64,000 bases of DNA, from the IMG/VR virus record IMGVR_UViG_3300027976_003475; one strand, 5' to 3'. Origin of the DNA: a virus. Below, piece by piece: positions 7,932 through 60,140 of the stretch (positions are counted from its first letter, which is position 1; each line of letters starts with the position of its first letter). The notes below the pieces were generated by a model. The model was not told the origin of the DNA, did not search any database, and saw only the letters and a list, made by a program, of their open reading frames with translations. Made by a program: the position numbers and the translations under genes.

Positions 7932-10900
7932 TCACCGCCCGCGGCGGCGCGGCGGCGCGGCGGGGGCGCGGGGGCGCGGGTTACTCTTCGGGGTGCCGTC
8001 GAGCGCGGGAGGCAGCCCGACCTGTGTGTGCTTGTATCGGCTTGCGATGCGGACGGCCATCCGCCACTCGTCGTCGCGCAGCGCGCCGACCATGGCTTTC
8101 GCTTCCAGGGCGTGCCCGATGGCGGAATCCGCCGCCGAGAAACCCATATCGTTGCGGTATCTCGCGAGGTCCGCGTCCGACTCCGACAGGATCGACAGCC
8201 CTCGCGAGGCCCACACCTCGACGGCGTTGCGCGGCCCGCGCATGGGGCTTCCGGCGCGGACGATCGAACGGTGCGCCGTGCCCGCAATCTTGATTGCCAC
8301 GGCCACGGCGGCCCGCGCCTTGGACTCCGACAGGCCCTCCGCATGGCGCTTCACGACATGCTCGATGATGGACAGGTCGTAGGGGTTCAGTGGGTTCATG
8401 CTCCGCTTGTCGCGGGCGTATTGCAGGATGACCTGCACTGCCCACTCCTCGGGGGAGAGGTCGTCGCCGTCGCGCGGCTTGCGCGGCTTGCGGACGCCGC
8501 CCACCACCGTCTCATCGTCGGGACGGGGATACCAGTCCGGGCGCCGCGGCTCCTCCGTATCGAACGTCATCGCGCCGCGCGCGGTGTCCAGCACGGCCGT
8601 CGAGTGCGCCTGCTTCTCGATGATCGCCTCCACGAGCTTGCTGTCCAGCGAGCCGTCCACGATCAGGTGTTGGATCAGCACCGGCTCGGTCTGCCCGATG
8701 CGGTGCACGCGATCCTCCGCCTGCGAGACGTTGCCGGGCACCCAATCAAGCTCCGCAAAGACGAGGTTGTGGGCGCGCGTGAGGGTGATGCCGACGCCGC
8801 TCGCGAGGATGCTGCCCACGAACACCCGGCACTTGGGGTCGTGCGGCTGCGACTTGCCGCCCCCGAGGTCGAGGCCCTGGAACTTCACCACCGCTTCGTC
8901 CTTGGCCTGGGGCGCCAGTCCGCCGGTGTGCAGCACCGTACTCCCGGCGCCGAACCGGGCCGTAAACGCCTTCACCAGTGCGTTCTGCACTTCATGGTGG
9001 TGGGCCATCACCACGACGGCCTCAATGCCGTTCTCCATCAGATTCTCAACGTGCTCGACGACGTACGGAACTTTGGCGACTGCGATGTTGCGGCGGGCGC
9101 GCGAAATCTCGCTGATATGGTACGTCTCGCGCGGCAGCTTCAAGAGCTCTGCGGCGGCGGCCTGATAGCCCGCTTCGTCCTTCGCCTCAATCGCCGCGCT
9201 CATCCGCTCGCGGATGCCCTCCGCGGCCTCCATCAGCGCCTCGTACTGCTCGGCCTCCATGTCGATGTCAACGCCCGCGTCTTCGAGGATGCTCGATGGC
9301 AGCATTACGATCTGGCGCATCTTGGCCGGGAGGTCTTTGAGCACGTCGCGCTTCAATCGGCGCACCATCATCGTCCCGCGGAGGAGCTCGAACAGCTCGC
9401 CGGTGTTCGACGCGCCCTTGAACTCCCACCCGTTCGTGTAGCTATTGCGCTGGGGGTCGCAGTAGCGGAACGCGAACGCGAAGAAGTTATCAAACACCGC
9501 GGGCGCGAGGTCGTGGATGTAAGGCCACATCTCGACGACGCGGTTGGGCATGGGCGTGCCCGTCAAGTAGATGCGCGCCCGCGACCGCTGGGAGAGACCG
9601 GGCTTGGTGACGGAGTGCCTGCGCGTGGTCTTGTCGTACGCCTGGAGCCCGAGGATGGACACGGAGCTCTTCTGCTGCTCCTGGCCTGAGCCTTTGATTT
9701 TGTGCACCTCGTCGACCACCAACAGCCCCCACTCCCGCGCCATGAGGTCGCGGAGGATCAGGCTCGGCCTGACGCGCTTGGTGGGCGTCCCTTCGAGCAC
9801 GTCACCGCGTCGGCTGTGCCCACGATGCTCGTCGGGCAGCACCGCGGCCCGCATCGGCTTCCAGCTCGCGTCGCAGAGCTCGTACTGCGGCGCCTTCGAG
9901 CGACGCCCGCGCTTCTCCCACCAATAGGAAAGGGTCTGCTGCGTCCCGAGAACCGACGTCTGGCGGTACGGCTCGCCGTAGCGGGAGAACTCCAGCGCGG
10001 CCTCCCGCGCCTTGTCCTCGCGCCCGAAACGGACGTCGGGCACCACCCGCCCGTTGACCGTATTGCGGACCCCGTACCAGAGCTTGTCGCCGCGCTTCAC
10101 CGCCGGAAGAAGCACGACGTCGTGCACCTGCTCCACGGGGCCAAAGTCCGTTTCCTTGAACTCGACGTCAATCAGCTTCTCGTAGTTGACAATCACGAAG
10201 TTCGCCCACGGAGGGACGGGCGCTTCGGTGTCGTCAGCGACGTAGATCGCGAACGGCCGCGCGAGCCAGCGCTCCGCCTCGCGCTTCCAGTTGGTGAGGA
10301 GCGATGCCGGGGCCACCACGACCACGGAGTCCACGTCGGGCCGGTTGTTGACATAGCCGAGAGCCTGGATCGTCTTCCCGAGGCCCGGCTCATCCGCGAT
10401 CAGGGTGCCGTTGCGCTGCATCGCGTACGCGATGCCGGGGCACTGAAACGGCAGGTACGTTTTACCGGGCGGCGCGATCAGCACCCCGCATGTCTCCCCG
10501 GTCGCAATGGCCGAGCCCGCAATGCCCGAGCCCAGCGCCGCGGCTTCGGCCACGATGTCGTCGGGAATGTCGAACTTGGCCGACAAGTTCGATCGGATAA
10601 GCGTGTAGACCGGGACGATGGTGGCCGCGATCATGCGGACCCCGTGCGGCTCGAACCCGAGGTCTTTCAGCGGCGCCTTCAACCCCTGCACCGCCCACTC
10701 CGGGCCGCCGACGGTGAAGCCCTTGTGACCGACATTGCGGGTGATGGTCAGGCGCGGCACCTCGCCCGGCGCGAGCCCGAGGCCCGTGTCGGCCACGAAC
10801 AGCGCCCACGCGCGCGGCGTCAGGTACAGGTCCGTCTTGAGCTGCGCCATCAGCTCCGCGATGCCCGTGGGGTGGTTGGACGCCCACGGAAGCCACTTGC

Positions 10901-22870: not shown

Positions 22871-23663
22871 CGCGGGTGCGGCGGGCGGGCGCGATCTCGG
22901 GCGGGGTCAGCCGCACCGTGGGCGCCGGTGGCGCTGCTACTGGCGCGCGGGAGAGGTCACCGAGGGTGTACGCGGCCTCGTCGCTTCCCACCGGGTTGAT
23001 GTGCGCGAGGTTGGGGCTGATGGCCCACCCGGCGCCGCCCTGGCCGTCCGTCGCGATCATTTGCGACCCGGCGAAGCTGTGATCGTAGGCATCGGCCGCT
23101 TCATGCTGAAGCCGCGTCGCGGCCTCGCGGATGTTTTCGACCGTGCCGTTGTGGGGCGCCTGGAGCACGTCAATGGCGAAGCCGTCGCGCGAGCGCAGGA
23201 AATAGTACACCGTGAACGGCGCGTGACCCGGGCGACGCGAGGGCGCGGGGGCGCGGGGGCGCGGGGGCGCGAGCGCAGCGGGCCGCGCGTTGCGCTTTAC
23301 GGTCGACTCTCGCACCGCATCGCGCACGCCCTGATTGAACGCGGCGAGGAGGGCCTTGTCGTCCCCGATGTCGTAGCGATACGGGCTTCCCGACGCGCCC
23401 ATGTTCCAGAACGCAAGCTCTTGGACGGCGTACAGGAACGAGGCGGGGGACGGCTTCGGCAGCTTGTACGCGCCCGTGCTGTGGCGCTCATGGAGCTCCT
23501 GCTCTGACCGCAGCTCCACCTTCACCGCCTCGCGCCCGAACTCCGCCCCGAGCGAGCGCGCGACCGAGCGCGGGGCCGTGAACCTCACAGGGGCCGCATG
23601 GGGCACCTCGACGGCGAAAACTCTCTGGCCGTACTGCCCCGCCCTGTGTCCGTTGCTCTGCAT
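22854..23663 (-). CDS. Two-domain hypothetical protein split by a KRN/Pro linker
   Basis: ATG overlaps the desulfurase stop; STVKRNARPAALAPP junction. Confidence 0.65.
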   Translation of the reverse strand: MQSNGHRAGQYGQRVFAVEVPHAAPVRFTAPRSVARSLGAEFGREAVKVELRSEQELHERHSTGAYKLPKPSPASFLYAVQELAFWNMGASGSPYRYDIGDDKALLAAFNQGVRDAVRESTVKRNARPAALAPPRPRAPAPSRRPGHAPFTVYYFLRSRDGFAIDVLQAPHNGTVENIREAATRLQHEAADAYDHSFAGSQMIATDGQGGAGWAISPNLAHINPVGSDEAAYTLGDLSRAPVAAPPAPTVRLTPPEIAPARRTRATARR

Positions 23664-24877
23664 CACCGCACCCTGTTCTTTCGCGCGCACTCCACCAGAA
23701 TCCCCGCCGCTTCTTCGACTTGAGCCGCGTCGTTGCAGGCGCCCAGGCCCACACGCACAATCGCGCCGTCATCCGGCGCCCCGAGGGCCTCCAGCACATG
23801 CGAGCGCTGCCCCCCGAGGGCCTTGCAGGCGCTCCCGGCGGACACGCACACGCGCTCGCGCGCGTCGGCGTGGAAGCCCGCGGAGTCGATGCCCACCAGG
23901 GTCACGTTGAGGTTGTGCGGGAGACGCACCAGACGCACCAGCCGCTCCGGCGCGGCCCCTTCGTCCCAGCACGGCGGGTCGATCGCGCCGTTGACGCGCA
24001 CGATCTCCCCCAGGCCCGATTGCAGCCGCGCGAGCAGGAGGTCGCGCAGGTAGCGCAGCCGCGCCGCCTCGGGCCGCGGCCCGCGGGCCCAGCGCTCCGC
24101 CATCTCGTCGCACGCCACGCCGAACCCGGCGATGGCGTGGGCGTTGATCGTACCCGCGCGGCGGCCTCGCTCCTGGCCGCCGCCGAGGGTCTGCGGGTCG
24201 AGGAACTCCCACACCCGCGGGCGTGCGTAGAGAGCGCCCACGCCCGTCGGGCCGTAGAGCTTGTGAGCACTCATGGCGGCGGAGTCGATGTTCGCGAGGT
24301 CGAACGGCACGCGCCCGAAACTCTGGCAGAGGTCCGCGTGCAGGAGCACTCCACGGCGTCCGCAGAGCTCTCCCACCTCGTTGATGGGATTGATGCTGCC
24401 CACCTCGTTGTTCGCGCCCTGGAGCGCCACCATGACCGTCTGCGGGCGCAACCGGCGCTCGACGCACCCAACGCGCACGGCGCCGCCGTCGCGCACCGGC
24501 ACCAGCTCGAAGTCGATCTCACCGCGCGCCGCGGCGCGCTTCAACGGCGCGAGGATGGAGCTGTGCTCCGCGGCGCCCGCGAGCACATGCGGCTTGGCGA
24601 GTCCGCGCGCCTTCGCGCCTGCAATCGCGCCCATTACCGCGAGGTTGTTGGCTTCGGTCGCGCCGCTGGTGAACGTCACGTCTGCGGGATCACAGGCCCC
24701 CAGGAGCGACGCGACCGACGCGCGCGCGCAGTCGATGCGCTCCGCCGACGCGCGCCCCGCGTGGTGCGCGGACGAAGCGTTGCCGCACTGCTGCATCGCA
24801 GCAAGCACTGCTGCTTGAACGCGCGGCGAGGTCGGGGTGGTTGCGTTGCAGTCGAGGTAGATCAGTGGTCGGGGCAT
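23663..24877 (-). CDS. iscS: Cysteine desulfurase (IscS/NifS/DndA family)
   Basis: YLDCNATTP, FTSGATEANN, ANNEVG, SAHKLYGP (PLP Lys), GGGQERG, VSAGSAC (catalytic Cys). Confidence 0.93.
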   Translation of the reverse strand: MPRPLIYLDCNATTPTSPRVQAAVLAAMQQCGNASSAHHAGRASAERIDCARASVASLLGACDPADVTFTSGATEANNLAVMGAIAGAKARGLAKPHVLAGAAEHSSILAPLKRAAARGEIDFELVPVRDGGAVRVGCVERRLRPQTVMVALQGANNEVGSINPINEVGELCGRRGVLLHADLCQSFGRVPFDLANIDSAAMSAHKLYGPTGVGALYARPRVWEFLDPQTLGGGQERGRRAGTINAHAIAGFGVACDEMAERWARGPRPEAARLRYLRDLLLARLQSGLGEIVRVNGAIDPPCWDEGAAPERLVRLVRLPHNLNVTLVGIDSAGFHADARERVCVSAGSACKALGGQRSHVLEALGAPDDGAIVRVGLGACNDAAQVEEAAGILVECARKNRVR

Positions 24878-24886
24878 TGGTGGGGT

Positions 24887-25975
24887 CTACCTCCAGCGGC
24901 GCGCGCGGTGGGGAGGGTGGTCGCGTTCAAGGCCCACCTCCAGGCCGACGTGTTCGGCCACCGTCGCGCCCATGTCGCCGCTGTTGCGCTTCGGCGGGAC
25001 GTCGAGAGTGATGATGTTCGTGGTGAGGTCGAGCGTCGCGACGAACGGCGTCGGCGGCTCTTGATTTGTCCAGCGAAGCGGCATGTCGAGGGCGACGTCG
25101 GCGCGGCGGTCGTGCTTCGCGGCGTCGTTGAACGCGCCCGTCAGCCATTCCTTTACCTCGCGCGGTTCGAGGCGCAGGTAACCGAAGATCGCCGACCAGG
25201 GCATCGCGCCCGCCGCGCGCGGCGTGAGCATCACCGTCCACGATCCCCACGGCACGATTACCGGCGAGGTAAAGTCGCGCGCCGTAACGTGGTAGCTGCT
25301 CGGGAGGTACTTGTACCAGCGATAAATGGCGTCGAGGCTCCCGAGACGGCGCGGCTCGACGTCCGGCACTGCGAAGGTTCGCGTGAACGCGGCGTGCTGC
25401 GCCGCCGCCGCGGCCCGGTCTGCCTCGCGCCGTTGAATCTCGGCGAGGAATGACGCGAACGCGCCGGGCGGCGCGACGTGCGCGTCGAGCGGCACGCGAG
25501 CAAGGTCCGCCATGCCCCGCGCGGCGGCCTCGACGCGGCGCTCCATGTACGAAACGCGGCGCTCGGCTTCGGCGCTCTGGCCCGTCGCGATCAGGTGCGC
25601 GAGCTCCTCCTGTCCGGGGTACTCGCCCGCAATCGCGGTCGTGGTCGCGACGTCCGGGTCACCGTGCGGGTCATCGGGCGCGAACTCCCAGGCGCGGCGC
25701 CACGCCGCTTCGACCCGCGCCCACAACGCGCCAGCGTCCGGGGCCCCAGCAGGCCCAGGAGCGCCCGCCGCCGCGGTGGCGGGCGCCGTGCGCGCCACGA
25801 CCCGCAACGCGGCACCAAGGGCGGCGCGGAGGGCGGCAACGGTCACCTCAAAGGGGATCGCGAACACCTCGCGGTGCTGCGCGCGATCGAAGAGCACCAG
25901 CCGCGCGGTGTCGCCGTCGACATGGAGCTGCAACGCGCGGCCCGCGTCGAGCGGAACCTCTTGGAGCAGGCCCAC
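24887..25975 (-). CDS. Hypothetical protein carrying the shared N-terminal domain
   Basis: N-terminus aligns with those of the SNF2 and DUF3560-MTase proteins; PPKRN near the C-terminus. Confidence 0.65.
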   Translation of the reverse strand: MGLLQEVPLDAGRALQLHVDGDTARLVLFDRAQHREVFAIPFEVTVAALRAALGAALRVVARTAPATAAAGAPGPAGAPDAGALWARVEAAWRRAWEFAPDDPHGDPDVATTTAIAGEYPGQEELAHLIATGQSAEAERRVSYMERRVEAAARGMADLARVPLDAHVAPPGAFASFLAEIQRREADRAAAAAQHAAFTRTFAVPDVEPRRLGSLDAIYRWYKYLPSSYHVTARDFTSPVIVPWGSWTVMLTPRAAGAMPWSAIFGYLRLEPREVKEWLTGAFNDAAKHDRRADVALDMPLRWTNQEPPTPFVATLDLTTNIITLDVPPKRNSGDMGATVAEHVGLEVGLERDHPPHRARRWR

Positions 25976-25979
25976 GGGA

Positions 25980-28274
25980 TCAGTACCGGCGGCGCGGGGG
26001 CGGGCGGCGGTTCTGCTTGACCACGATGCCTGCCGCGGCGAGCTCCTCCATCATGGCGCGCATGAGCTCCTCGTCGCTGGCGCGGCGCGGCGCCGGGGCA
26101 GCGGGCGGGCGGGCCACGGGGGCGCGGCGGGGGCGCGGCTCCTCCAGGGCGGGGGCGCCGAAGCGCGCCGCGCGCGGCGGGAGGGGACGGCGCTCCTCCA
26201 GGGCGGGGACGCCGAAGCGCGCCGCGCGCGGCGGGAGGGGACGGCGCTCCTCCAGGGCGGGGGGGGCGCTCCAGGGGCGGCGCGCGGGGACGTCGCGGTA
26301 GATGTTGCCGGGCTGGTGGGGCGCGATCTCCAGCGTGTGCTGGCCGCGCATCACGCGCAGCGTGTCGCCGGGGCGCTGGCCTTCGTAGCGCGGCGCCCAC
26401 GTCCCGTTGCCTTCGAGCAGTCGTTGCGGGTCGAGCAGCACCACGCCCGGCTCGCCCGCCTGATCGCGCACCACCTCCGCCACGGTTCCGCGCAGCGTCG
26501 ACTCCATGCGATGCCCCGACCGCAGCACGACCTGATCGCCCGCCTTCACGACGGCCCAATGGCCCAGGTTGCGCGAAGCGCGCCCGCCCCCGCCCCCGCT
26601 GCTCTTCACGCCGCCGCCGCTGTTCGTGAACGGCGTCGGCATGTCGGGGCCGGAGCGCTCGGGGACGTGATAGTCGCCCTTGGCCGCGTACTTCGACGCG
26701 AGCCGGACGAACTGCGCGAGGTCGGTCGGGATCGGATCACCGATGTCATACCGACCCTCGTAATAGAACCCGTCGGGGTATTCCACCTTGATCCCCGTCT
26801 TGCAGTAGCCCTTTTCGCCCACGATGCCCTCGCGGCGCCCGCGCGCCTTCGCCGCGATGCCCTCGCGCAGCAACGCCGTGGCTTCCTGCCACATTGCCGG
26901 GCCGGAGAACGTGCGCGGGAGTCCGAGTTCGTTGAGCCGCTCCGATTCGCTCCACTCGAACGTGATGGCGCTGGCGCCGAGGGGGCGTGGGCGGGCCTCT
27001 TCAAGCGCGGGCACGCCGAACCGCGGGGTGCGCGGGGGCGGCGGCATGGTGACGGGGCGGGGTGCGCGGGGCGCGAGCGGCCGGGACGCATGGGGCGGCT
27101 CCTCGCCGCGCACCGTCGCGACCACCTTGGGCGAGCGGCCGGGACGCCTGGGGGGGGGCAACGCGCCCGTACGGATGTCCTCGCGGCGAGCGCCCGCGAG
27201 GGCGCGCGAGCGGGTCATGACATGGCCGCCGACGACGTGCGCGGGGGCGCCGTCGCGGGCGACCGCGCGCGCTCGAATCTCGCCCGCGTAGTCGTCTCCG
27301 CCGACGGTCTGACCGATCCAGGCGTCGGCGCGGTCGGAGTAGTAGGAGCCGCCGGGCACGCCCTGCGAACCGCGGTTGGGCTTGCGGGGCGCTTGCTGCG
27401 CCGCGTACAGCGCCAGGGCGCGGTGCGCGGCGTCAGGGGTGTCGTAGTACGACAACACCGTGTCGCGGGCGGGGCGCCCGTCGTAGCCGTCCGAGGGGTT
27501 CCAGACCTGCGCCACATAGCCGCGGCCTCGCACCTCACCAACCGCGAACTGCAAGCCCAGCGCCGGGTGCCTCCACACGCGCACGTTGCCGACGCCCTGC
27601 GCGAGCCCGCTGGAGACGGTCCTCCACTGCGCGAGCGGGGGCATGTACCCCCCCAGCGGGTCACCGGGCGCGTGATACCCGCCGTGGTGGTTGGGCTTCG
27701 GGGACTCGAACTCGAAGGGCTCGAAAGACGTGTCGTAGGGAACGCCGCCGACGTCGGGCAGGCTTGGGCACTCGTCGTAGGCTTCCGCCGGGACGGGGCG
27801 CCCCGCGCGGAGCTGATCCCCGTAGGTCTCGCACGCGGTTTGGGGGGGTGCCTTCGGCACCCGCACGGCTCGTCGGAGCTCGCGGTCGGGGACGATGTAC
27901 CGCTGCCCCTTCTGCACCGCGAATACCTGCTTGGTCTTCGGCTTCGCCGCGGACGGCGACGCGCCCCCGACGACGGTCACGCGCTGCGTGTCGCAGCGGT
28001 TCACGAGCTTGCCCTTGCGGTTCGGGGTGAGCTCGCAGTTGACGCGCGCGTAGAACTCGCGCCCGACCAGGGTGTCCGCGAACGGGAGGATGGGGAAGTT
28101 CGCCGGGAGCGCGGCGCGTTCGGCAGCGAGCCGATCGCGCGCCTGCTGCGCCGTCAGCTTCGCGGCCTTGTGCGCGGTGAGGTTCTCCGCCGCCATCCGC
28201 TGCTCGATGGTCGTGCGCTTCTGCTCGACGGCCTTGCGGGGCTTCGCGGGCGCCTTCTTCTTCTGCTTCGCCAT
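25980..28274 (-). CDS. Basic multidomain (polyprotein-like) putative virion core protein
   Basis: Lys-rich N-terminus; PKPN, RKPN and KQN junctions; RFGVPALEE repeats. Confidence 0.7.
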   Translation of the reverse strand: MAKQKKKAPAKPRKAVEQKRTTIEQRMAAENLTAHKAAKLTAQQARDRLAAERAALPANFPILPFADTLVGREFYARVNCELTPNRKGKLVNRCDTQRVTVVGGASPSAAKPKTKQVFAVQKGQRYIVPDRELRRAVRVPKAPPQTACETYGDQLRAGRPVPAEAYDECPSLPDVGGVPYDTSFEPFEFESPKPNHHGGYHAPGDPLGGYMPPLAQWRTVSSGLAQGVGNVRVWRHPALGLQFAVGEVRGRGYVAQVWNPSDGYDGRPARDTVLSYYDTPDAAHRALALYAAQQAPRKPNRGSQGVPGGSYYSDRADAWIGQTVGGDDYAGEIRARAVARDGAPAHVVGGHVMTRSRALAGARREDIRTGALPPPRRPGRSPKVVATVRGEEPPHASRPLAPRAPRPVTMPPPPRTPRFGVPALEEARPRPLGASAITFEWSESERLNELGLPRTFSGPAMWQEATALLREGIAAKARGRREGIVGEKGYCKTGIKVEYPDGFYYEGRYDIGDPIPTDLAQFVRLASKYAAKGDYHVPERSGPDMPTPFTNSGGGVKSSGGGGGRASRNLGHWAVVKAGDQVVLRSGHRMESTLRGTVAEVVRDQAGEPGVVLLDPQRLLEGNGTWAPRYEGQRPGDTLRVMRGQHTLEIAPHQPGNIYRDVPARRPWSAPPALEERRPLPPRAARFGVPALEERRPLPPRAARFGAPALEEPRPRRAPVARPPAAPAPRRASDEELMRAMMEELAAAGIVVKQNRRPPPRRRY
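26139..26261. repeat. 54-bp coding tandem repeat (PALEERRPLPPRAARFG)
   Basis: cctccagggcggg recurs at 26141, 26195 and 26249. Confidence 0.9.
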
Positions 28275-29028: not shown

Positions 29029-29032
<4 letters not shown>

Positions 29033-30354
29033 CGACCGGCGCGGGCCTTCTGCGGGCGGCGGCGCGGGCGCGCGGCGGCGCCGTTGGGGCGCAGGGAGCT
29101 CATTGCGTCGTACTCGTCGATGGAGCGGCGGCGCGGGCGCGCGAGCGCGTCGTCGAGCGTCATGGCGCGGCCGATGGGCATGGCGTCCGCGTAGTGCGGC
29201 ACGGCCTCGGGCGTCACGGTCCCCCGGCGGCCCTGGAGCCGCTGGTTGGGCTTCGCGGGGGGGGCGGGCGCGTAAGAGGTACGATTGGCGGCGAGGTGCT
29301 TGAAGAGCTCCTGCTGCGAGGTGAACTTGAACCCGGTGTCGTGCCATGCGTCCCGCCATGCGTCCCGCGAACGGGCGCCCACGGCAACCCCGTGGTGCTG
29401 GTGCAGCACTTCGTACACGCCGCGCTCATGCCAGACGCCGACCCCGGCCCACCCGAGGCGCGGGAGGTGGCCGAAGCGGGTCGTTGGGTGCCCGTCGCGG
29501 TCGGCGGTGAGTACCTCCCATCGAATCGGGACGCGGAACGTGTCCAGGCTCTTCGCCGCCGCCGCGCGGACGTCGCCAGGATCGCCGCCGCGCGACGCGG
29601 TGCGAAGTGCAGCGGCGTACAGCTTGGGAATCTCCGCGTCGTGATAGAGCTCCGCCTCCCCGAGCACCAGCCATCCCGCCGTGCGCGCGATTTCGGCCTT
29701 GCCCGCGTCACGCGGCCGGGCGATCGGCACGCCGGGAAACCCGTAGCCGTAGCCGCCCGTGAGTGCGCCGTCGCTCCACAGCCGGAGGCGCGAGCCGTCC
29801 GCCGTGGTGCGCTCCGCCATCACGCGAGCGGGCGCGGGCGGGGAGCCATTGAACTTGAACCCGACCTGCTGCCCCGGCGCTGCCACTTCGCGGGCCGCGA
29901 AGAGGCCCCCGCCTTCGATGCTGGCGCCGCGCCGCGCGGGCGCCCTGGAGGCCCCGCCGCGGCTCGCCGCGCCCGCCTGGAGCGTCAGCTCGCGGGCGCG
30001 GGCCATCGCCTCGAACTTCGACGAGAACGCGCCGTCAGGGCCCGAGACGTAGGAGCGGGTGGGCGGGTTCCACACTCGCCAGCCGTCGCTGAATTGCTTG
30101 AGGTGCACCCGCTCCGGGTCTTCGGCGTCGGCGTCGACGCCGCCGCGGCGCGCGGCGCGCACGTCGCTCACTTCGAGCACGAGCTCCCGCGGCGTCTCGG
30201 CGGCGCGCTTTCGCCGCTTGGGCTCCAACCGTTGCAGGTGCGCGCTCGCGCTCGCGTGGTCGTCGGGTTCGTAGATCGCGACGAAGCGCTCCCCGTCCCA
30301 AACGCGGAAGCGACCGTCGGAGCCGGTATGAATGTGGGGGGGGGCGCCAGCCAT
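29029..30354 (-). CDS. Multidomain hypothetical protein (putative virion core)
   Basis: Several short domains; AKPN and LRPN junctions; Arg-rich tail. Confidence 0.65.
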
Positions 30355-30405
30355 GCGACCGACGATGCCGGAGCGGAGGGGGCGCGTCAACGACGCGCGG
30401 AGGGA

Positions 30406-30954
30406 TCAGACGACGAGCAGCGCGAGGATGTACGTCTCGTTGCCGAACGTGAGCACGAGGAACTTCTCGCCGACTGCGAGGTACAGGAACACGCCGCTGT
30501 AAACGCCCGTCACGGAGTCGGAGACGAGGTGGCCGGTGGCGCGGGCCCCGGCGACGCTGGGGCCGACCGCGACGGCGTTGCCGGTGACGTCGGTGATGCT
30601 CACGATGTCGTCGGACGCCGAGAACGCGACGGCGTTGCCGTACGCCTCCTTGCCCGTATTGACGATGCGCTGCGTCGTGAAGCGCACGCGCGCCTCCTTG
30701 GGGTTGGCGCCCAGCTCGAAGACGCCGGTGATGTTGCCATTGCCGATGAGCGCGAGGGGCGCCTTGGAGGCTCGCCCCACGGTGGTCGCGATCAGCGGAA
30801 TGATGTTGTTCCCCTGGTCCTTGACGACGCTCGGGGGCGCCGACAGCGGCGAGTAGATCAGCCCGCCCGGCTGGTTGGGGGTGTAGTTGGGGGTGGCACT
30901 CGCAGTGCGAGCGCTCTTGATGACGGGTCCGGTCTTCTGTCCCTGTCGAGCCAT
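30406..30954 (-). CDS. Beta-rich putative structural protein
   Basis: Alternating hydrophobic strands; AAGGAAA RBS; follows the capsid candidates. Confidence 0.6.
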   Translation of the reverse strand: MARQGQKTGPVIKSARTASATPNYTPNQPGGLIYSPLSAPPSVVKDQGNNIIPLIATTVGRASKAPLALIGNGNITGVFELGANPKEARVRFTTQRIVNTGKEAYGNAVAFSASDDIVSITDVTGNAVAVGPSVAGARATGHLVSDSVTGVYSGVFLYLAVGEKFLVLTFGNETYILALLVV

Positions 30955-31007
30955 GGTCTCTTTCCTTCGTCTCTCTGCGCCGGAGGCGCCTGCGGGTCCG
31001 TGAAACC

Positions 31008-31535
31008 TTAACCGATCGCGGTCCCCACCGTCACCTCGGGCCGCCCACTCAGGGGCCAGAAAATCGTGCGGAGGGAGACTTGAAGCTGGAGCTGGCCGAC
31101 GGGATCAATGATCCGGCCGCAGAGCCACATCGTATTGCAGACGTGGGCGTTGATCTGGAAAACCATCCCCTCGCGGGTGATGGTCGACCCCACGAAGTCC
31201 GCGCCTTGGAGGATGGTGACGCCCTTCGGGGGGTCGTTGTCGGGCATACAGCCGCCGACCCCGACAAACAGCTTCCATTCAATCCGCAGCTTCGGGGGGA
31301 GGGTCGCGCCGCTGCGGTTGGAATACTGCCCGTCCATCCAAATCGCCGCGGTGCACGGCTCGACGTGATCGTACTGGATGAGGCACTGCTCGGCGGTGTC
31401 AGAGGCGGCGCGCTCGCCAATCTCCACGCTGCACGAGGTCCGCAACGGCCCGCCCTTCGGGGCCCTCGCGTCCAGCACCACGCCGCCGGGGCCGTAGGCA
31501 AAAGCGACGACCTTCTGCGGGCCACGGAAGAGCAT
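31008..31535 (-). CDS. Putative minor/small jelly-roll capsid or penton protein
   Basis: 175-aa beta-strand-rich protein directly downstream of the capsid candidate. Confidence 0.45.
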   Translation of the reverse strand: MLFRGPQKVVAFAYGPGGVVLDARAPKGGPLRTSCSVEIGERAASDTAEQCLIQYDHVEPCTAAIWMDGQYSNRSGATLPPKLRIEWKLFVGVGGCMPDNDPPKGVTILQGADFVGSTITREGMVFQINAHVCNTMWLCGRIIDPVGQLQLQVSLRTIFWPLSGRPEVTVGTAIG

Positions 31536-52349: not shown

Positions 52350-52619
52350 ATGCCAGCCCAAGCCCGCAAGCCCGCAAACCGTGTCCCTAAAGCGTTTCGG
52401 ATCAGCGCGACGGTCGAGCGCGACCTGCGGAGGTTCGCGCGGCGGTTCACGAAGGGCGACCCGACGGGGCGCGTGTGGACGCAAACCGACGTCGTGGAGC
52501 TTGCGCTCATCCAGGCGGCGAAGGCGTGGCACGCTGGCGCGACCCCGTGGGCTGCGGAACACGCGGAGGTGTATCCCGCCGTCCGCACCGAACCGTCAAG
52601 GCAGGGCGTGGCGCGATGA
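52350..52619 (+). CDS. Small RHH-like DNA-binding protein
   Basis: KAFRISATVERDL..TQTDVVELAL. Confidence 0.5.
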   Translation: MPAQARKPANRVPKAFRISATVERDLRRFARRFTKGDPTGRVWTQTDVVELALIQAAKAWHAGATPWAAEHAEVYPAVRTEPSRQGVAR

Positions 52620-53182
52620 CGCCCGTCGGCATCACCCGCCTCCGCGAGCTCTCGGTCGTCGAGCCGGGGCGCACCGGCGGGGTGCTGATCGACGGCGCCC
52701 TGCTGCGCGAGATGGCGGCCGAGCTCATCGCGGCGCGGACGTCGAGGGCGGCGCTGGACGACGCCGTGCGCGAGCGGGATCTGGCGCTGGCGCAGGCCGC
52801 GTCCGCGGCGCCGTGCGTCGACGCGATGCAGGAGATTCAGACGCGGCTCGTCGGCGGGGGCGCGGCGATCCTGTGCGGCGCCGTGGTGGCAGCCGTGGAC
52901 ACGCTGATGCTGGCGCGCGACACGCTGGCCGTCGCCTGGCGCGAGCAGGAGGCGGCGCGAGTAGTCTCGACGTGGGCGCTCATCGACGAGATCGTGAGGG
53001 AGCGCGACCACTACCGCGAGCGGGCGACGACGCACGCGGAGCGGCTGCGGTCGTTGGAGGGCACCTGCGCGTCGGCGATGCGTCAGGGGCTCGATGCCTG
53101 CCACCGGCTGCGGGTGCGTGCGGCGTGGCTGGAGCGCCGATGGCGGGAGGAAGCCGCCGACCCGTCGCGCGGGGTGCCGTGA
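52616..53182 (+). CDS. Coiled-coil hypothetical protein
   Basis: ATGA overlap. Confidence 0.6.
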   Translation: MTPVGITRLRELSVVEPGRTGGVLIDGALLREMAAELIAARTSRAALDDAVRERDLALAQAASAAPCVDAMQEIQTRLVGGGAAILCGAVVAAVDTLMLARDTLAVAWREQEAARVVSTWALIDEIVRERDHYRERATTHAERLRSLEGTCASAMRQGLDACHRLRVRAAWLERRWREEAADPSRGVP

Positions 53183-53213
53183 ACACCTGCGAACACGCGC
53201 CCCGGCGGGCGCG

Positions 53214-53501
53214 ATGATGGGCGTTCGGTATGGTCAGTGGTGTGTGCGCGTCACCCACCGGGCGACGGGGTTGTCCGTCGCGCTCTGGCGGACTTTGGGC
53301 ACCGGCTCAAGCGCCACGATGCAGAACCTCCGCGCTGATGCCTTCCGCTTGCTTCGCGCTCGGCTCTGGCAGCGCCGCCATCGGTGCGGGCCGCCGCCGA
53401 TCGTTCGCACCTACGACCTGACCGGGGAGGACCGCGAGCGTGTCGCGGTGTTCCTCGACGGGGAAGGCGCGTTTGAGGGGGTGGTTGCCGCCGGTGAATA
53501 G
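53214..53501 (+). CDS. Class-I release-factor C-terminal-like protein lacking GGQ
   Basis: VRVTHRATGLSV, QNLRADAFRLLRARLW, IVRTYDL and VFLDGE parallel RF1/RF2 motifs. Confidence 0.6.
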   Translation: MMGVRYGQWCVRVTHRATGLSVALWRTLGTGSSATMQNLRADAFRLLRARLWQRRHRCGPPPIVRTYDLTGEDRERVAVFLDGEGAFEGVVAAGE

Positions 53502-53528
53502 CCCCGCGGCCGACCCGTCAGACGGTAC

Positions 53529-54044
53529 ATGAGCAATGCCGTCCGCAAGCTGACCGGCGCCGTCTCGCGTTATGCACCGATCGTCTCCGCCGACATTACG
53601 GCCGCGCCGCCGCAGCGGTCGCGGACGCCCTACCGTCGCCGCGTTGGCGTGCGGTCGAGTACGTTGTCGATCCGCGACCTACGGAGCCTCGCGCGCGACC
53701 CCCAGGAGGCATCGCCCGAGGAGGTCGAGGCCAATGAGTCGCTCCGCCCGAGGACGCGCGCCGCGTGCGAGCACGCAATCAGGCCGTGCCCGTGGGTGGG
53801 TTGTAAATTCAACCTGTACCTCGACGTAAACACCGCGGGAGGGCTGAAATTGAACTGGCCCGAGATTGAGCCCTTGGACATGGACCCGTCGGCATCCTGC
53901 GTGCTCGACATTGCGAAGCGCGGAGCCATGAAGCTGATTTCCATCGGGCGTATGATGAACCTGACGCGCGAGCGGGTGCGCCAACTCGAAGACATCGCCC
54001 TCGCGCGAGCGCGCTCGACCACGGAGAGCCTCGACGTGTTGTGA
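53529..54044 (+). CDS. Sigma-70 region-4 HTH protein with Cys-rich N-domain (myxobacterial-type family)
   Basis: RPRTRAAC..RPCPWVGCKFNLYLDV..CVLD..IGRMMNLTRERVRQLE. Confidence 0.75.
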   Translation: MSNAVRKLTGAVSRYAPIVSADITAAPPQRSRTPYRRRVGVRSSTLSIRDLRSLARDPQEASPEEVEANESLRPRTRAACEHAIRPCPWVGCKFNLYLDVNTAGGLKLNWPEIEPLDMDPSASCVLDIAKRGAMKLISIGRMMNLTRERVRQLEDIALARARSTTESLDVL

Positions 54045-54073
54045 ACTGCTCGGCTGGCGTGCGACTATGCGCC

Positions 54074-56404
54074 ATGCACGCCGTGGAGCTTCACTCCCCC
54101 TTCGACCCCCGCACCCTCCGCTCCGGTCTCTACCGCGCGTCCAGCGCCTCGCCCGCGTACGCGCAGCTTCACGCGCTGTGTGTGCTCGGGAGGGGGCGGG
54201 TGGTGGCGCAGCGCCATTTCGGCGGCGGCGTCAAGAGCATCGTGTGCGAGCTCCGCGCGCCGAAGCGCAACAACGACGGCGCGGGGCAGATCACCCTGGA
54301 CCCGGATTTCTTCCAGGGCGCGCTGAAGGACTATCACCAGTGGGAGGTGAAGTGGTGGCGCGAGGCCATCCAGAACGCGGTCGACGCGGGCGCGAAGAGC
54401 GTGCACTGCTCCGTGCTGAAACTGCCCGACGGCACGGTGCAGGTGCGGTGCGACGACGACGGCCGCGGGATGGATCGCGACACCCTCATCACGAAGTTCC
54501 TGCGCCTGGGCGCGAGCGGAAAGAAGGCCGACGCCGGGGCCGCGGGCGGGTTCGGCAAGGCCAAGGAAATGCTCCTGCTCCCGTGGCTCCAGTGGAGCGT
54601 CACGACGCGCACGACGCACGTCGTCGGGGCGGGGCTTCGGTACGAGACGACGGCCGTGTCCGAGCGCAAGGGGACGCGCCTGGAGGTGGTGATGCCTGCC
54701 GACAACTGCACGCGCATCCAACTCGCGATGGCCTTCGTCGCGCGCTGCAACCTCCCGCACGTCCGCTTCTACTTCCACGGCGACGGGACGGAACTCGCCG
54801 GGACGCAGGCCGCCGCGAAGCCCGGCAAGCTGATCCGCGAGATTCCCGGCAAGGCCAAGCTGTATTTCGCCAAGGGTGCCGAGTCGGAGCTGTCGATTCG
54901 CACCGGGGGCCTGTGGATGTTCAACCGCTACCTGCCCAGCGCGGTGCAGGGTCGGGTGACGGCAGAGCTCATCGGGCGCTCCATCGACCTGCTCACTGCG
55001 AACCGAGACAGCTTCCGCGACTACGACCTTGCGCGCGGGATCGAAGCCCTCGCGGCGGAGATCGCGGCCGACGTGAAAAGCGCGACCAAGGAGCGCGACA
55101 AGAGCCGCAAGGTGTACCGCGGCACGGGGAAGTTTAGCCCCCGCGCGGCGAAGGAACTGGAGGCTAGCCTTGCCGTGGCGTCGGCTGGCGCGATGGAACT
55201 CGCCAGCAAGATCAGCACGGGCAGCGGTGCCTCGGTGCAGCTCGACGCGCAGACGGTCACCCGGATGGGCGACGTCCTGCTGCACGACGGGGGCGCGGGC
55301 GAGGCCGTCGTGACGGACGGAGAACTCCGCGTGGGTGGCAGCCCGGCGGCGGCGGCGGTCGTGGTGTTGTCCGTGACGCCGGTGCTCGGCCAGGAGCACC
55401 TTGAGCGGATTATGAAGCAACTGGCGTGGAGCCCGGACTTCTACGTCGTGAACAATCTTGAGGGGTGGAAGCCCCCGCCGGGCCTCCTGCCGGAGCGCAT
55501 GAACCGCAAGGCGCTCGCGCTCGCGAAGGCGTGGACAGAGCTCTGTCGCTACGTCCTCATCATGCTCAACTCGTCGGCGGAGTTCGGGGTGGGGTGGGTT
55601 TTCGACGACGACACCGGCGCGGGCTATCTGCGGGAGCACGGGCAGCACTGGCTCATGCTCAACCCGTCCGCGGACAAGGCCGATCGCGCCAAGCTGTTCG
55701 ACCCGCAGATCCCGGCTCATCTGAACTGGCTCGTCGCGTGCGCCGTGCACGAGGCGACGCACATGGCGAACGGGATCGACCTGCACAACGAGGCATTCTC
55801 GTCCGCGCTCACCGCGAACATGGCGACGTGCGCGGGCATTTGGGCGATCGCGCCGTTGCTGGTGCAGGCCATCTTTGGCGGCGCCGACGTCCAGCAGGCG
55901 CGGGCGCTCGCGGTGGGCCTCGGGGGCAAGGCCGCTGCGCCCCGCAAGGATCGCGTGGTGGAGCGGATCGTCGAGAAGCCCGTTTTTGTGGATCGCGTGG
56001 TGGAGCGGATCGTCGAGAGGCCCGCCTCGTTGTGGGACGCGGGCATCGCGTCGTCGGGGGCGGCGCGCGAGCTCCGGCTCACCGCGCCGGAGCGGCAGCC
56101 GGGACGTGCACAGCCGCAACTCGGGCTGAAGTTCAACGGCTTGTCGAAGCCCCGCAAGCGTAACGCCGGTGACGCGGGCGATGCTCGACGGGGCCTTGGC
56201 GGTACATGGGCGCGGGCCGACCACACGGCCCACGTTCGACGGCTGTACGAGGAGGCGTTCCGGGCCGATCCGTACTTCATGGAGGAGGTGACGGAGGCCG
56301 TCACGGGGTCGCCCGTGTTCGTGTGGGACAACCTCACGCTGAATCAGACGCGCGCGCTCGGTCGCTCGGCGTACATTGTCGTACTCCAGGCGAGGGGGGG
56401 CTAG
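54074..56404 (+). CDS. GHKL (HSP90/MORC-like) ATPase fused to a HExxH zincin-like domain
   Basis: REAIQNAVDA, DDDGRGM, GGFGKAK; VHEATH..HNEAF; KRN motifs flank the core. Confidence 0.8.
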   Translation: MHAVELHSPFDPRTLRSGLYRASSASPAYAQLHALCVLGRGRVVAQRHFGGGVKSIVCELRAPKRNNDGAGQITLDPDFFQGALKDYHQWEVKWWREAIQNAVDAGAKSVHCSVLKLPDGTVQVRCDDDGRGMDRDTLITKFLRLGASGKKADAGAAGGFGKAKEMLLLPWLQWSVTTRTTHVVGAGLRYETTAVSERKGTRLEVVMPADNCTRIQLAMAFVARCNLPHVRFYFHGDGTELAGTQAAAKPGKLIREIPGKAKLYFAKGAESELSIRTGGLWMFNRYLPSAVQGRVTAELIGRSIDLLTANRDSFRDYDLARGIEALAAEIAADVKSATKERDKSRKVYRGTGKFSPRAAKELEASLAVASAGAMELASKISTGSGASVQLDAQTVTRMGDVLLHDGGAGEAVVTDGELRVGGSPAAAAVVVLSVTPVLGQEHLERIMKQLAWSPDFYVVNNLEGWKPPPGLLPERMNRKALALAKAWTELCRYVLIMLNSSAEFGVGWVFDDDTGAGYLREHGQHWLMLNPSADKADRAKLFDPQIPAHLNWLVACAVHEATHMANGIDLHNEAFSSALTANMATCAGIWAIAPLLVQAIFGGADVQQARALAVGLGGKAAAPRKDRVVERIVEKPVFVDRVVERIVERPASLWDAGIASSGAARELRLTAPERQPGRAQPQLGLKFNGLSKPRKRNAGDAGDARRGLGGTWARADHTAHVRRLYEEAFRADPYFMEEVTEAVTGSPVFVWDNLTLNQTRALGRSAYIVVLQARGG

Positions 56405-59742: not shown

Positions 59743-60140
59743 GGCGCACCTCCGATCGCTGCGAGCAGCCGCACGCGGGCGGCCTCGCGGGCAGCAATGG
59801 CCCGGCCGGTCCGATCGATGTACCCGCGCACGTCGGGCTCGGATCGCCCGCACGTCGCGGACTCCGCGCCGTCGACCGCCGCGACGTACTCCCGCGCCGC
59901 CGTCTCCAGCGCGCCGAGGCGCAGGTAGAGATCCCGCTCCGTCTCCTCCATCGAGGCGTTCGCGCGGCCGAGGCACGCCGTCAGCCGCGCAACCTCGGCG
60001 GCCTGCGCGTGGCCGTGGGCGAGCAGCGTGTGCACGTCGTCGTCGGCGAACGTCTGCGCGCTGCCCACTGCCCCAGCGTCGCCGCGCTCGCGCGCAGCCT
60101 CCGCCCGCGCCACGATCGCCGCGAGGTCGTCGGGCGTCAC
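59739..60140 (-). CDS. Hypothetical protein (VTP-start family)
   Basis: GGAGGTGCGCC-GTG start; coiled coil. Confidence 0.65.
   Translation of the reverse strand: MTPDDLAAIVARAEAARERGDAGAVGSAQTFADDDVHTLLAHGHAQAAEVARLTACLGRANASMEETERDLYLRLGALETAAREYVAAVDGAESATCGRSEPDVRGYIDRTGRAIAAREAARVRLLAAIGGAP

What the first reader, a model, noticed from the sequence alone, without database searches (positions are those of the whole stretch)
53214..53501. Mini release-factor homologue lacking the catalytic GGQ
Seen: four ordered motifs matching the RF1/RF2 region after GGQ (VRITHxPTG, QN..A..L+ARL, IRxY, VLDG). Only a degenerate YGQ precedes them, with the normal spacer missing. Inference: a catalytically dead ribosome-binding mimic that could modulate termination, readthrough or ribosome rescue. 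It sits among early genes next to a sigma-like protein.
Basis: partly seen in the sequence, partly recalled or inferred. Interest (0 to 1): 0.62.

Follow-up and report, generated by a model that had tools for sequence, protein, structure and literature searches.

The report
Viral release-factor fragment lacking GGQ
An uncultured high-GC virus-like element carries a small conserved gene copied from the back third of a bacterial translation release factor, starting just after the catalytic GGQ loop, so it cannot release peptides; its real role is untested.

Summary
The ORF at 53214-53501 (+) is a real, coding-like gene for a 95-aa basic protein. It belongs to a family of at least 24 proteins of 80-95 aa from uncultured viruses and deltaproteobacterial MAG contigs.

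Neither Pfam nor NCBIfam recognises the window's protein. A family profile does show the homology:
- Searched against all PDB sequences, its top 45 hits are all class-I release factors (best E 6e-7).
- hhalign against E. coli RF1/RF2/ArfB/PrfH gives 91% probability.

The four ordered motifs are confirmed and collinear with RFs. The C-terminal pair looks RF2-like, which is suggestive only (p about 0.001).

The "degenerate YGQ" is not a GGQ relic. Its Gln is Tyr or His in close relatives and the motif is absent in distant ones. The protein simply begins where the GGQ loop ends.

"Catalytically dead" is therefore supported. "Ribosome-binding mimic" is untested. The sigma-like neighbour is weak and is not conserved in two relatives' loci.

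GGQ-less mini RF-domain proteins turned out to be common in sequenced phages (Acinetobacter, Pseudomonas, Xanthomonas, Rhizobium, Clostridium, Aeromonas). Databases name them, but I found no study of them. This scan has already met such proteins on other DNA. This is a new, more reduced variant of that known kind.

The parts
53214..53501 (+). CDS of the 95-aa mini release-factor fragment (P0001). The start may be the second ATG at 53217, since relatives begin M-I-G.
   Evidence: coding-type GC3 pattern; 23+ homologues; RF homology.
53229..53237 (+). 'YGQ' (res 6-8). This is not a GGQ relic; it is a variable N-terminal segment.
   Evidence: Q8 is Y/H in P0007/P0008 and the tripeptide is absent in distant members. 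pLDDT is low here in the deeper model.
53244..53294 (+). Beta-hairpin, res 11-27. VRVTHRATG plus the following strand, equivalent to RF domain-3 strands 'VRITHxPTG / IVVxCQ'. T14, H15 and G19 are (nearly) invariant.
53319..53381 (+). Arg-rich helix, res 36-56. Equivalent to the start of the long RF helix after domain 3 (NK..A..L.ARL), but roughly half as long.
   Evidence: AF2 models; hhalign and HMM alignments.
53388..53426 (+). GPPPIVRTYDLTG, res 59-71. G59, P60, V64, R65, D68 and L69 are conserved. It aligns with E. coli RF2 'G..QIRSY[8-aa hairpin]DLRTG', the switch-loop / first domain-4 strand region.
53433..53462 (+). Short helix plus FLDG, res 74-83. Aligns with RF2 '..AVLDGSL'. L81 and G83 are conserved.
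52475..53182 (+). Context only: upstream co-directional ORF (235 aa, no family hit). It ends 32 nt before the mini-RF gene.
53529..54044 (+). Context only: 171-aa protein with a weak sigma-70 region-4-like HTH (res 139-160).
   Evidence: Pfam Sigma70_r4 E 7.3e-5, 22.7 bits, below the cut-off of 24.1.
54041..56404 (+). Context only: 787-aa GHKL-type ATPase (HATPase_c_3), the last gene of the same-strand cluster.

Best explanation
Shown: the gene encodes a small, very basic protein (pI about 10.6). It descends from the C-terminal third of a bacterial class-I release factor, probably RF2. What is kept is the two strands that follow the GGQ loop, a shortened version of the long helix, and remnants of the switch-loop/domain-4 segment (VRxYDLTG...LDG). 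What is missing is the GGQ loop, the strand before it, and the whole stop-codon-reading part. It therefore cannot catalyse peptide release.

Inferred: it is kept by selection as a non-catalytic binding module aimed at the translation machinery. The most likely target is the ribosomal site or partner that this part of RF2 normally touches. There it would compete with, or modulate, host release or rescue factors during infection. The gene seems to act on its own, because its neighbours differ between relatives.

The confidence given is for the whole statement. The identity part alone is about 0.9.
For: Identity:
- Profile against PDB: top 45 hits are all RF family, best E 6.3e-7 (earlier 1.5e-5).
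- hhalign probability 90.9%, P 1.2e-6, mini 8-52 to RF1 241-279.
- Pfam RF-1 hits in 4 of 23 members.
- Collinear alignment to E. coli RF2 257-353.
- C-terminal sub-profile against RF2: 7 of 5000 shuffles reach the score.
- AF2 models superpose on RF1, PrfH, mtRF1 and mtRF-R at about 2 A rmsd with 23-34% identity, Z 4-5.
- The ESM Atlas top structural neighbour is an 82-aa viral cluster in which 41% carry PF00472.

Selection:
- 24 members at 26-82% identity keep T14, H15, G19, G59, P60, V64, R65, D68, L69, L81 and G83.
- They occur in backgrounds of 56% to 74% GC.
- All are intact 80-95-aa ORFs.

Translation link, by analogy:
- Many sequenced phages carry GGQ-less RF-domain proteins.
- In T4-like Acinetobacter phages these sit next to tRNA genes.
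- High pI fits RNA binding.
Against: - No binding or activity data exist.
- For ArfB, the GGQ domain alone does not hold the ribosome; the C-terminal tail residues are needed (PMC3950681).
- The RF motif 'RSQ..NK' at the start of the helix is lost in the window's subfamily.
- The shortened helix could not span from the decoding centre to the peptidyl-transferase centre.
- 28 of 42 coding-like ORFs in the window end in TGA, so a strong RF2 antagonist would also hurt the virus.
- Structural Z-scores are tied with unrelated alpha/beta folds such as LptE.
- No conserved translation-related neighbours.
Confidence: 0.45

Rival explanations
1. Exapted small basic protein. The RF-derived hairpin-helix scaffold now serves a role unrelated to termination, for example nucleic-acid binding, regulation of the early/replication gene cluster, or a structural role in the particle.
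For: - pI 10-12 with an Arg-rich helix.
- The RF motifs that are not purely structural (RSQ..NK, GGQ) are gone.
- The fold is a generic beta-hairpin plus helix that also matches many unrelated proteins at Z about 5.
- In the window it sits beside an HTH protein and a GHKL ATPase.
- Organellar RF relatives without GGQ are thought to have other functions (PMC3472500).
Against: - Neighbours are not conserved in relatives, so no link to the HTH protein or ATPase.
- The recurrent, independent appearance of GGQ-less RF domains in many phage lineages, sometimes next to tRNA genes, points to the translation machinery.
Confidence: 0.28
2. Decoy for a protein partner of RF2 rather than for the ribosome. 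It would bind host RF2 itself, by fragment complementation or a dominant-negative effect on the domain 2/4 sheet, or bind an RF-interacting factor.
For: - The conserved C-terminal VRxYDLTG...LDG segment corresponds to RF2 strands that normally pack onto domain 2 (packing is from established RF2 structures such as 1GQE, my knowledge).
- These are the most conserved residues of the family.
Against: - PrmC, the best-known RF partner, recognises the GGQ loop, which is absent here.
- There is no co-variation or complex prediction available, so this is pure inference.
Confidence: 0.12
3. Non-functional relic, or not homologous to RFs at all (chance motif resemblance).
For: - The single sequence gets no Pfam or NCBIfam hit.
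- Foldseek finds nothing significant.
- dN/dS could not be measured.
Against: - The family is conserved across 24 members and very different GC backgrounds, with invariant residues.
- All members are intact ORFs of similar length.
- The family profile hits only RFs at E 6e-7, and hhalign gives 91%.
Confidence: 0.05

Closest known systems
Bacterial class-I release factor RF2 (PrfB; e.g. E. coli RF2, PDB 1GQE/5MDV), C-terminal third
   Same: Collinear motifs: VR(I/V)TH..TG, the start of the long helix (A..LL.ARL), (I/V)R.Y, D(L)(R)TG and (V/L)LDG.L. The profile aligns to RF2 257-353. Predicted hairpin plus helix superposes on RF domain 3.
   Different: Only 95 aa against 365. It lacks domain 1, the codon-reading domain 2 (SPF), the strand before GGQ and the GGQ loop. 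The long helix is about half as long, an 8-residue hairpin is deleted between 'RxY' and 'DLTG', and the C-terminal helix is missing. The RSQ..NK motif is lost in the window's subfamily.
Phage 'RF-1 domain peptide chain release factor' mini-proteins (PHROG 20323, e.g. Acinetobacter phage ZZ1 p0148 / DP45 gp138; PHROG 4279, Clostridium phage phiMMP03; Aeromonas phage PAc gp72; Xanthomonas DoCa11 gp35; phiPsa347 gp6; Rhizobium LG08 gp66)
   Same: Small stand-alone phage proteins built on RF domain 3 that have lost GGQ. I found no study of them. The Aeromonas PAc protein likewise begins directly at 'VRVKHLPSG'. Family member P0012 hits PHROG 20323 at E 4e-4.
   Different: Most of these keep the strand before the loop and a full-length loop with GGQ substituted (e.g. 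SGARRWVN). They lack the RF2-like C-terminal VRxYDLTG...LDG segment. The window's protein matches PHROG 20323 only at E 0.2. The A2 profile scores them at E 0.1-0.3, so this is a separate family.
Mycobacteriophage RF-1 domain proteins (PHROG 3122; Rizal, EniyanLRS gp129) and ArfB/YaeJ, ICT1, C12orf65
   Same: Stand-alone RF domain-3 proteins without a codon-reading domain.
   Different: They retain GGQ and, in ArfB/ICT1, a basic C-terminal tail needed for ribosome binding (PMC3950681). They are, or are presumed to be, active hydrolases.
GGQ-less organellar RF relatives (e.g. the extra ICT1-like protein of ticks; non-canonical plastid/mitochondrial RFs; PMC3472500)
   Same: RF family members that lost GGQ and are presumed to have taken on non-catalytic roles.
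   Different: These are eukaryotic, much longer, arose by gene duplication of full-length factors, and are not viral.

Membership tests
Class-I release factor RF-1 domain (Pfam PF00472) | Significant sequence-profile match to the RF-1 domain | tested here: inconclusive
   P0001 alone gets no Pfam hit even at E 10. Four of 23 family members hit PF00472, best E 4e-4. The family profile hits only RFs in PDB, E 6.3e-7, and hhalign gives 90.9%. Homology is supported, but Pfam's own threshold is not met by the window's protein.
Class-I release factor RF-1 domain (Pfam PF00472) | Universally conserved GGQ motif in a loop between two strands | tested here: not met
   No GGQ in any of the 24 members. 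YGQ in P0001 is not conserved (YGY, YGH in P0007/P0008). The alignment starts after the GGQ position.
Bona fide release factor RF1/RF2 | Codon-recognition domain with PxT or SPF motif (PCRF domain) | tested here: not met
   The protein is 95 aa and all of it aligns to the region after GGQ. The all-lengths representative search found no longer fused relatives, only two spurious repeat proteins.
ArfB / ICT1-type rescue factors | GGQ domain followed by a linker and a conserved basic C-terminal tail that enters the mRNA channel | tested here: not met
   No GGQ. The C-terminus is acidic/neutral (EDRERVAVFLDGEG...) and aligns to RF2 domain-4 remnants, not to the ArfB tail. The A2 profile does not report E. 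coli ArfB even at a permissive threshold.
Phage GGQ-less RF-domain proteins, PHROG 20323 | Match to the PHROG 20323 profile | tested here: inconclusive
   P0001 E 0.2, P0012 E 4.2e-4, and other members no hit. Related at superfamily level, but not a member by profile.
RF2 rather than RF1 origin | RF2-type C-terminal motif D(H/L)RTG ... VLDG.L | tested here: inconclusive
   The C-terminal sub-profile scores 5.8 bits on E. coli RF2 at the collinear site, and 7 of 5000 shuffles reach that score. RF1 is not significant. Only E. coli sequences were tested.

The most novel reading that the evidence does not exclude
The protein is a virus-encoded antagonist of host class-I release factors or ribosome-rescue factors. 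It would be an RF2-derived fragment that occupies the factor's ribosomal or partner site without hydrolysis, letting the virus tune UGA termination/readthrough or block a host rescue or abortive response. It would be one lineage of a widespread, unstudied class of GGQ-less phage RF mimics.
Probability: 0.2. Interest if true: 0.8.

Novelty: new variant of a known kind. Interest (0 to 1): 0.5.

Why it matters
Viruses are known to bring their own tRNAs and, when recoded, whole release factors. Catalytically dead release-factor fragments are named in phage databases, but I found no study of them. This family shows the most extreme reduction seen here: it starts right after GGQ and carries RF2-type tail remnants. 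It also occurs in a virus-like element that is probably not a tailed phage.

If such fragments bind the ribosome or RF partners, they would be natural, genetically encoded modulators of translation termination. That makes them a testable handle on how infection rewires termination and ribosome rescue, and possible tools for controlling stop-codon readthrough.

If they do not bind, they would be a clean example of a translation-factor domain being put to a new use.

Tried and rejected
Searches that gave nothing or nothing significant:
- Single-sequence Pfam and NCBIfam: no hit.
- Single-sequence PDB phmmer: only noise.
- Foldseek against PDB and BFVD: nothing significant.
- blastn of the region against phages: no match.
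- tblastn of P0012 against phages: only weak hits to host-like RF genes.

Getting DNA of relatives, for synteny and dN/dS:
- The search for related loci with A1, P0011, the GHKL ATPase and the sigma-like protein found nothing in the viral, genome or metagenome collections.
- A2 was too diverse to give search patterns.
- A degenerate DNA pattern for P..VR.YDLTG gave six unrelated loci.
- Only P0022 and a P0020-like gene could be fetched (L021, L022). Both are too diverged from the window for dN/dS.

Other dead ends:
- No whole genome is held for the window.
- P0009 and P0014, the long 'hits' of the representative search, are repeat proteins whose scores add up spuriously.

Ideas rejected:
- YGQ as a GGQ remnant: rejected on conservation.
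- A conserved operon with the sigma-like gene: rejected for the two relatives available.
- Programmed readthrough in the window: two same-frame gene pairs are separated by one stop, which is about what chance predicts.

Full report
**The object.** Window 53214-53501 (+) is an intact ORF of 95 codons. Its GC by codon position (0.70/0.55/0.81) shows the same coding signature as the flanking genes. The ORFs that overlap it in other frames do not show this pattern. It lies 32 nt after a 235-aa ORF and 27 nt before a 171-aa ORF, in a same-strand cluster (about 52475-56404). That cluster diverges from a DnaC-like loader and other replication-type genes. A longer reading from the ATG at 53094 is unlikely, because it would overlap the upstream gene and all relatives begin at the M-I-G position.

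The window is 71.6% GC and no whole genome is held for it. It carries phage-type helicase, methyltransferase, DpdA-like transglycosylase and endolysin-like genes. Earlier notes of this scan call it an uncultured, roughly 72-kb freshwater virus-like element linked to myxobacteria. I checked only the phage-like gene content.

**Is the gene real and conserved?** A word-indexed search found six close relatives at 67-82% identity. An exhaustive HMM search of 1.84 billion representatives added six distant relatives of 80-94 aa. A profile search then raised the family to 23 members, and one more came from a fetched locus. The two long 'hits' are repeat proteins and spurious, so no fused forms are known.

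Members come from JGI, ENA, Logan and NCBI assemblies. They include two IMG/VR viral contigs and a MAG labelled Deltaproteobacteria. Identity to the window's protein ranges from 26% to 82%, yet T14, H15, G19, G59, P60, V64, R65, D68, L69, L81 and G83 are invariant or nearly so. One member sits in DNA of 56% GC and another in 74% GC, so the conservation is not a by-product of base composition. All members are strongly basic (pI mostly 10-12).

**Is it a release-factor homologue?**
- The single sequence matches nothing in Pfam or NCBIfam. It matches the PHROG named 'RF-1 domain peptide chain release factor' only at E 0.2.
- With the 13-member profile, the best 44 matches among 177,635 PDB sequences were all RF1, RF2, mtRF1, PrfH or C12orf65, best E 1.5e-5.
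- With the 23-member profile, the best 45 were all of that family, best E 6.3e-7.
- hhalign against an alignment of E. coli RF1, RF2, ArfB and the PrfH fragment gave 90.9% probability and P 1.2e-6. Residues 8-52 aligned to RF1 241-279.
- Four of the 23 members individually hit Pfam RF-1, best E 4e-4.
- Distant members carry the canonical 'RITHLPTG'.

*Structure.* Two AlphaFold models (pLDDT 73.7 and 75.6) give a beta-hairpin (8-14, 21-27), a long helix (about 36-56) and a short C-terminal helix (74-81). These superpose on RF1, PrfH, mtRF1, mtRF-R and RF2 at roughly 2 A rmsd over 45-50 residues, with 23-34% identity and Z 4-5. Those Z values are tied with unrelated small alpha/beta folds such as LptE, so the structure is consistent with the homology but not decisive. 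Foldseek alone found nothing significant. The ESM Atlas's nearest structural cluster is an 82-aa viral family in which 41% of members carry PF00472.

**What is kept and what is lost.** The HMM alignment to E. coli RF2 runs collinearly from just after GGQ to the C-terminal VLDGSL, RF2 257-353.

Kept:
- the two strands after the GGQ loop;
- the first half of the long helix;
- 'GP.P.VR.Y', aligned to 'G..QIRSY';
- 'DLTG', aligned to 'DLRTG' after an 8-residue deletion;
- 'LDG.L'.

Lost:
- the first two thirds of an RF;
- the strand before GGQ and the GGQ loop itself;
- about half of the long helix;
- the last helix.

A profile of the C-terminal part alone finds the collinear site in E. coli RF2. 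Only 7 of 5000 shuffles score as well, and it finds nothing in RF1. That suggests RF2 ancestry but does not prove it.

It reads YGY and YGH in close relatives and is absent in the rest. The structural alignments place residue 4 opposite RF1 residue 234. The protein therefore starts where the catalytic loop ends, rather than carrying a degenerate loop.

**Context.** The downstream neighbour's sigma-70 region-4 match covers 22 residues and falls below Pfam's threshold. The next gene is a GHKL-type ATPase. In the two relatives' loci that could be fetched, no window protein has a homologue near the mini-RF gene. The neighbours there are RTX-repeat proteins, an AAA ATPase and an HTH protein. The gene thus behaves as an independent accessory gene. 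The window has one tRNA-Pro(CGG) about 6 kb away and no second copy of the gene or full-length RF.

**Comparison with what is known.** A tblastn of E. coli RF1 residues 220-300 against 50,697 phage records hit 406 records. I read out ten complete proteins and one fragment from these.
- Mycobacteriophage proteins (Rizal, EniyanLRS; PHROG 3122) keep GGQ.
- GGQ is missing in proteins of:
  - Acinetobacter phages ZZ1 and DP45 (PHROG 20323)
  - Xanthomonas phage DoCa11
  - Pseudomonas phages phiPsa347 and Ep020
  - Rhizobium phage LG08
  - Clostridium phage phiMMP03 (PHROG 4279)
  - Aeromonas phage PAc
- The Aeromonas protein even begins directly at 'VRVKHLPSG', as the present family does.

GGQ-less stand-alone RF-domain proteins are therefore common in sequenced phages and are named in databases. 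Four full-text searches found no paper that studies them. One paper merely notes an RF-1-domain gene in mycobacterial tRNA arrays (PMC5966550). This scan has also reported such proteins on other DNA, including a high-GC phage protein described as the RF2 tail end cut after GGQ. No earlier window shares sequence words with this protein.

The present family is separate by profile: E 0.1-0.3 to those phage proteins, and PHROG 20323 at E 0.2 for the window's protein. It is also distinguished by its RF2-type C-terminal remnant. Organellar RF relatives that lost GGQ are a further precedent (PMC3472500).

**Mechanism.** It is shown that the protein cannot act as a peptidyl-tRNA hydrolase in the RF manner. 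The rest is inference.

I favour (about 0.45) a non-catalytic binder of the translation machinery that competes with or modulates release or rescue factors. Three observations support this:
- the scaffold comes from the ribosome-contacting part of RF2;
- the protein is very basic;
- independent phage lineages repeatedly keep GGQ-less RF domains, sometimes beside tRNA genes.

Against it:
- ArfB needs its C-terminal tail, not the GGQ domain, to hold the ribosome (PMC3950681);
- the RSQ..NK motif is lost in the window's subfamily;
- the helix is too short to bridge the two ribosomal centres;
- most genes in the window end in TGA, so a strong RF2 antagonist would also hurt the virus.

Rivals are exaptation to a role unrelated to termination (0.28), a decoy for RF2 itself or an RF partner (0.12), and a relic or chance similarity (0.05).

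**Limits.** The public collections that could be scanned held only two distant relatives.

Noticed in passing
L014:989-1219; L018:380-616; L015:386-880; L016:383-778; L017:383-580; L011:1327-1668; L012:1483-1908: Seven annotated phage proteins built on the RF-1 domain have no GGQ (for example 'SGARRWVN' or 'GKHSNWVN' in its place). They come from Acinetobacter ZZ1 and DP45, Xanthomonas DoCa11, Pseudomonas phiPsa347, Rhizobium LG08, Clostridium phiMMP03 and Aeromonas PAc. Several are labelled 'RF-1 domain peptide chain release factor' or 'peptide chain release factor 1'. Only the mycobacteriophage versions keep GGQ.
   Followed up: partly
L013:999-1223 vs L013:1001-1240 (Mycobacterium phage Rizal, NC_011272): The annotated CDS gp202 is in a different reading frame from the RF-1-domain ORF that tblastn finds. 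The annotated frame translates to an Arg/Ser/Pro-rich sequence, and the other frame gives a GGQ-containing RF domain. This is probably a frame misannotation in that record.
   Followed up: partly
L014:273-344 and 989-1219; L018:1-15 and 380-616: In T4-like Acinetobacter phages the GGQ-less RF-domain gene lies within a few hundred bases of tRNA genes (tRNA-Trp/Pro in ZZ1, tRNA-Leu in DP45).
   Followed up: no
window 30406-31104(-) / 29029-30405(-); 24887-26050(-) / 23663-24886(-): Two pairs of coding-like ORFs are in the same frame and separated by a single stop (TGA and TAG). The downstream gene of the first pair has no obvious ribosome-binding site. This is about what chance predicts, so I do not take it as evidence of readthrough.
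   Followed up: partly
window, whole: Stop-codon use among 42 coding-like ORFs is TGA 28, TAG 12, TAA 2. There is one tRNA-Pro(CGG) at 59911-59999 (-).
   Followed up: no
window 54041-56404 (+): A 787-aa protein with an N-terminal GHKL/HATPase_c_3 ATPase domain (res 108-193) and a long uncharacterised remainder. It matches only PHROG 6203 (unknown function).
   Followed up: no
L021:4876-5988 and 8406-9758: The 143-kb IMG/VR contig that carries family member P0022 encodes two RTX calcium-binding repeat proteins within 5 kb of the mini-RF gene, and is only 56% GC.
   Followed up: no
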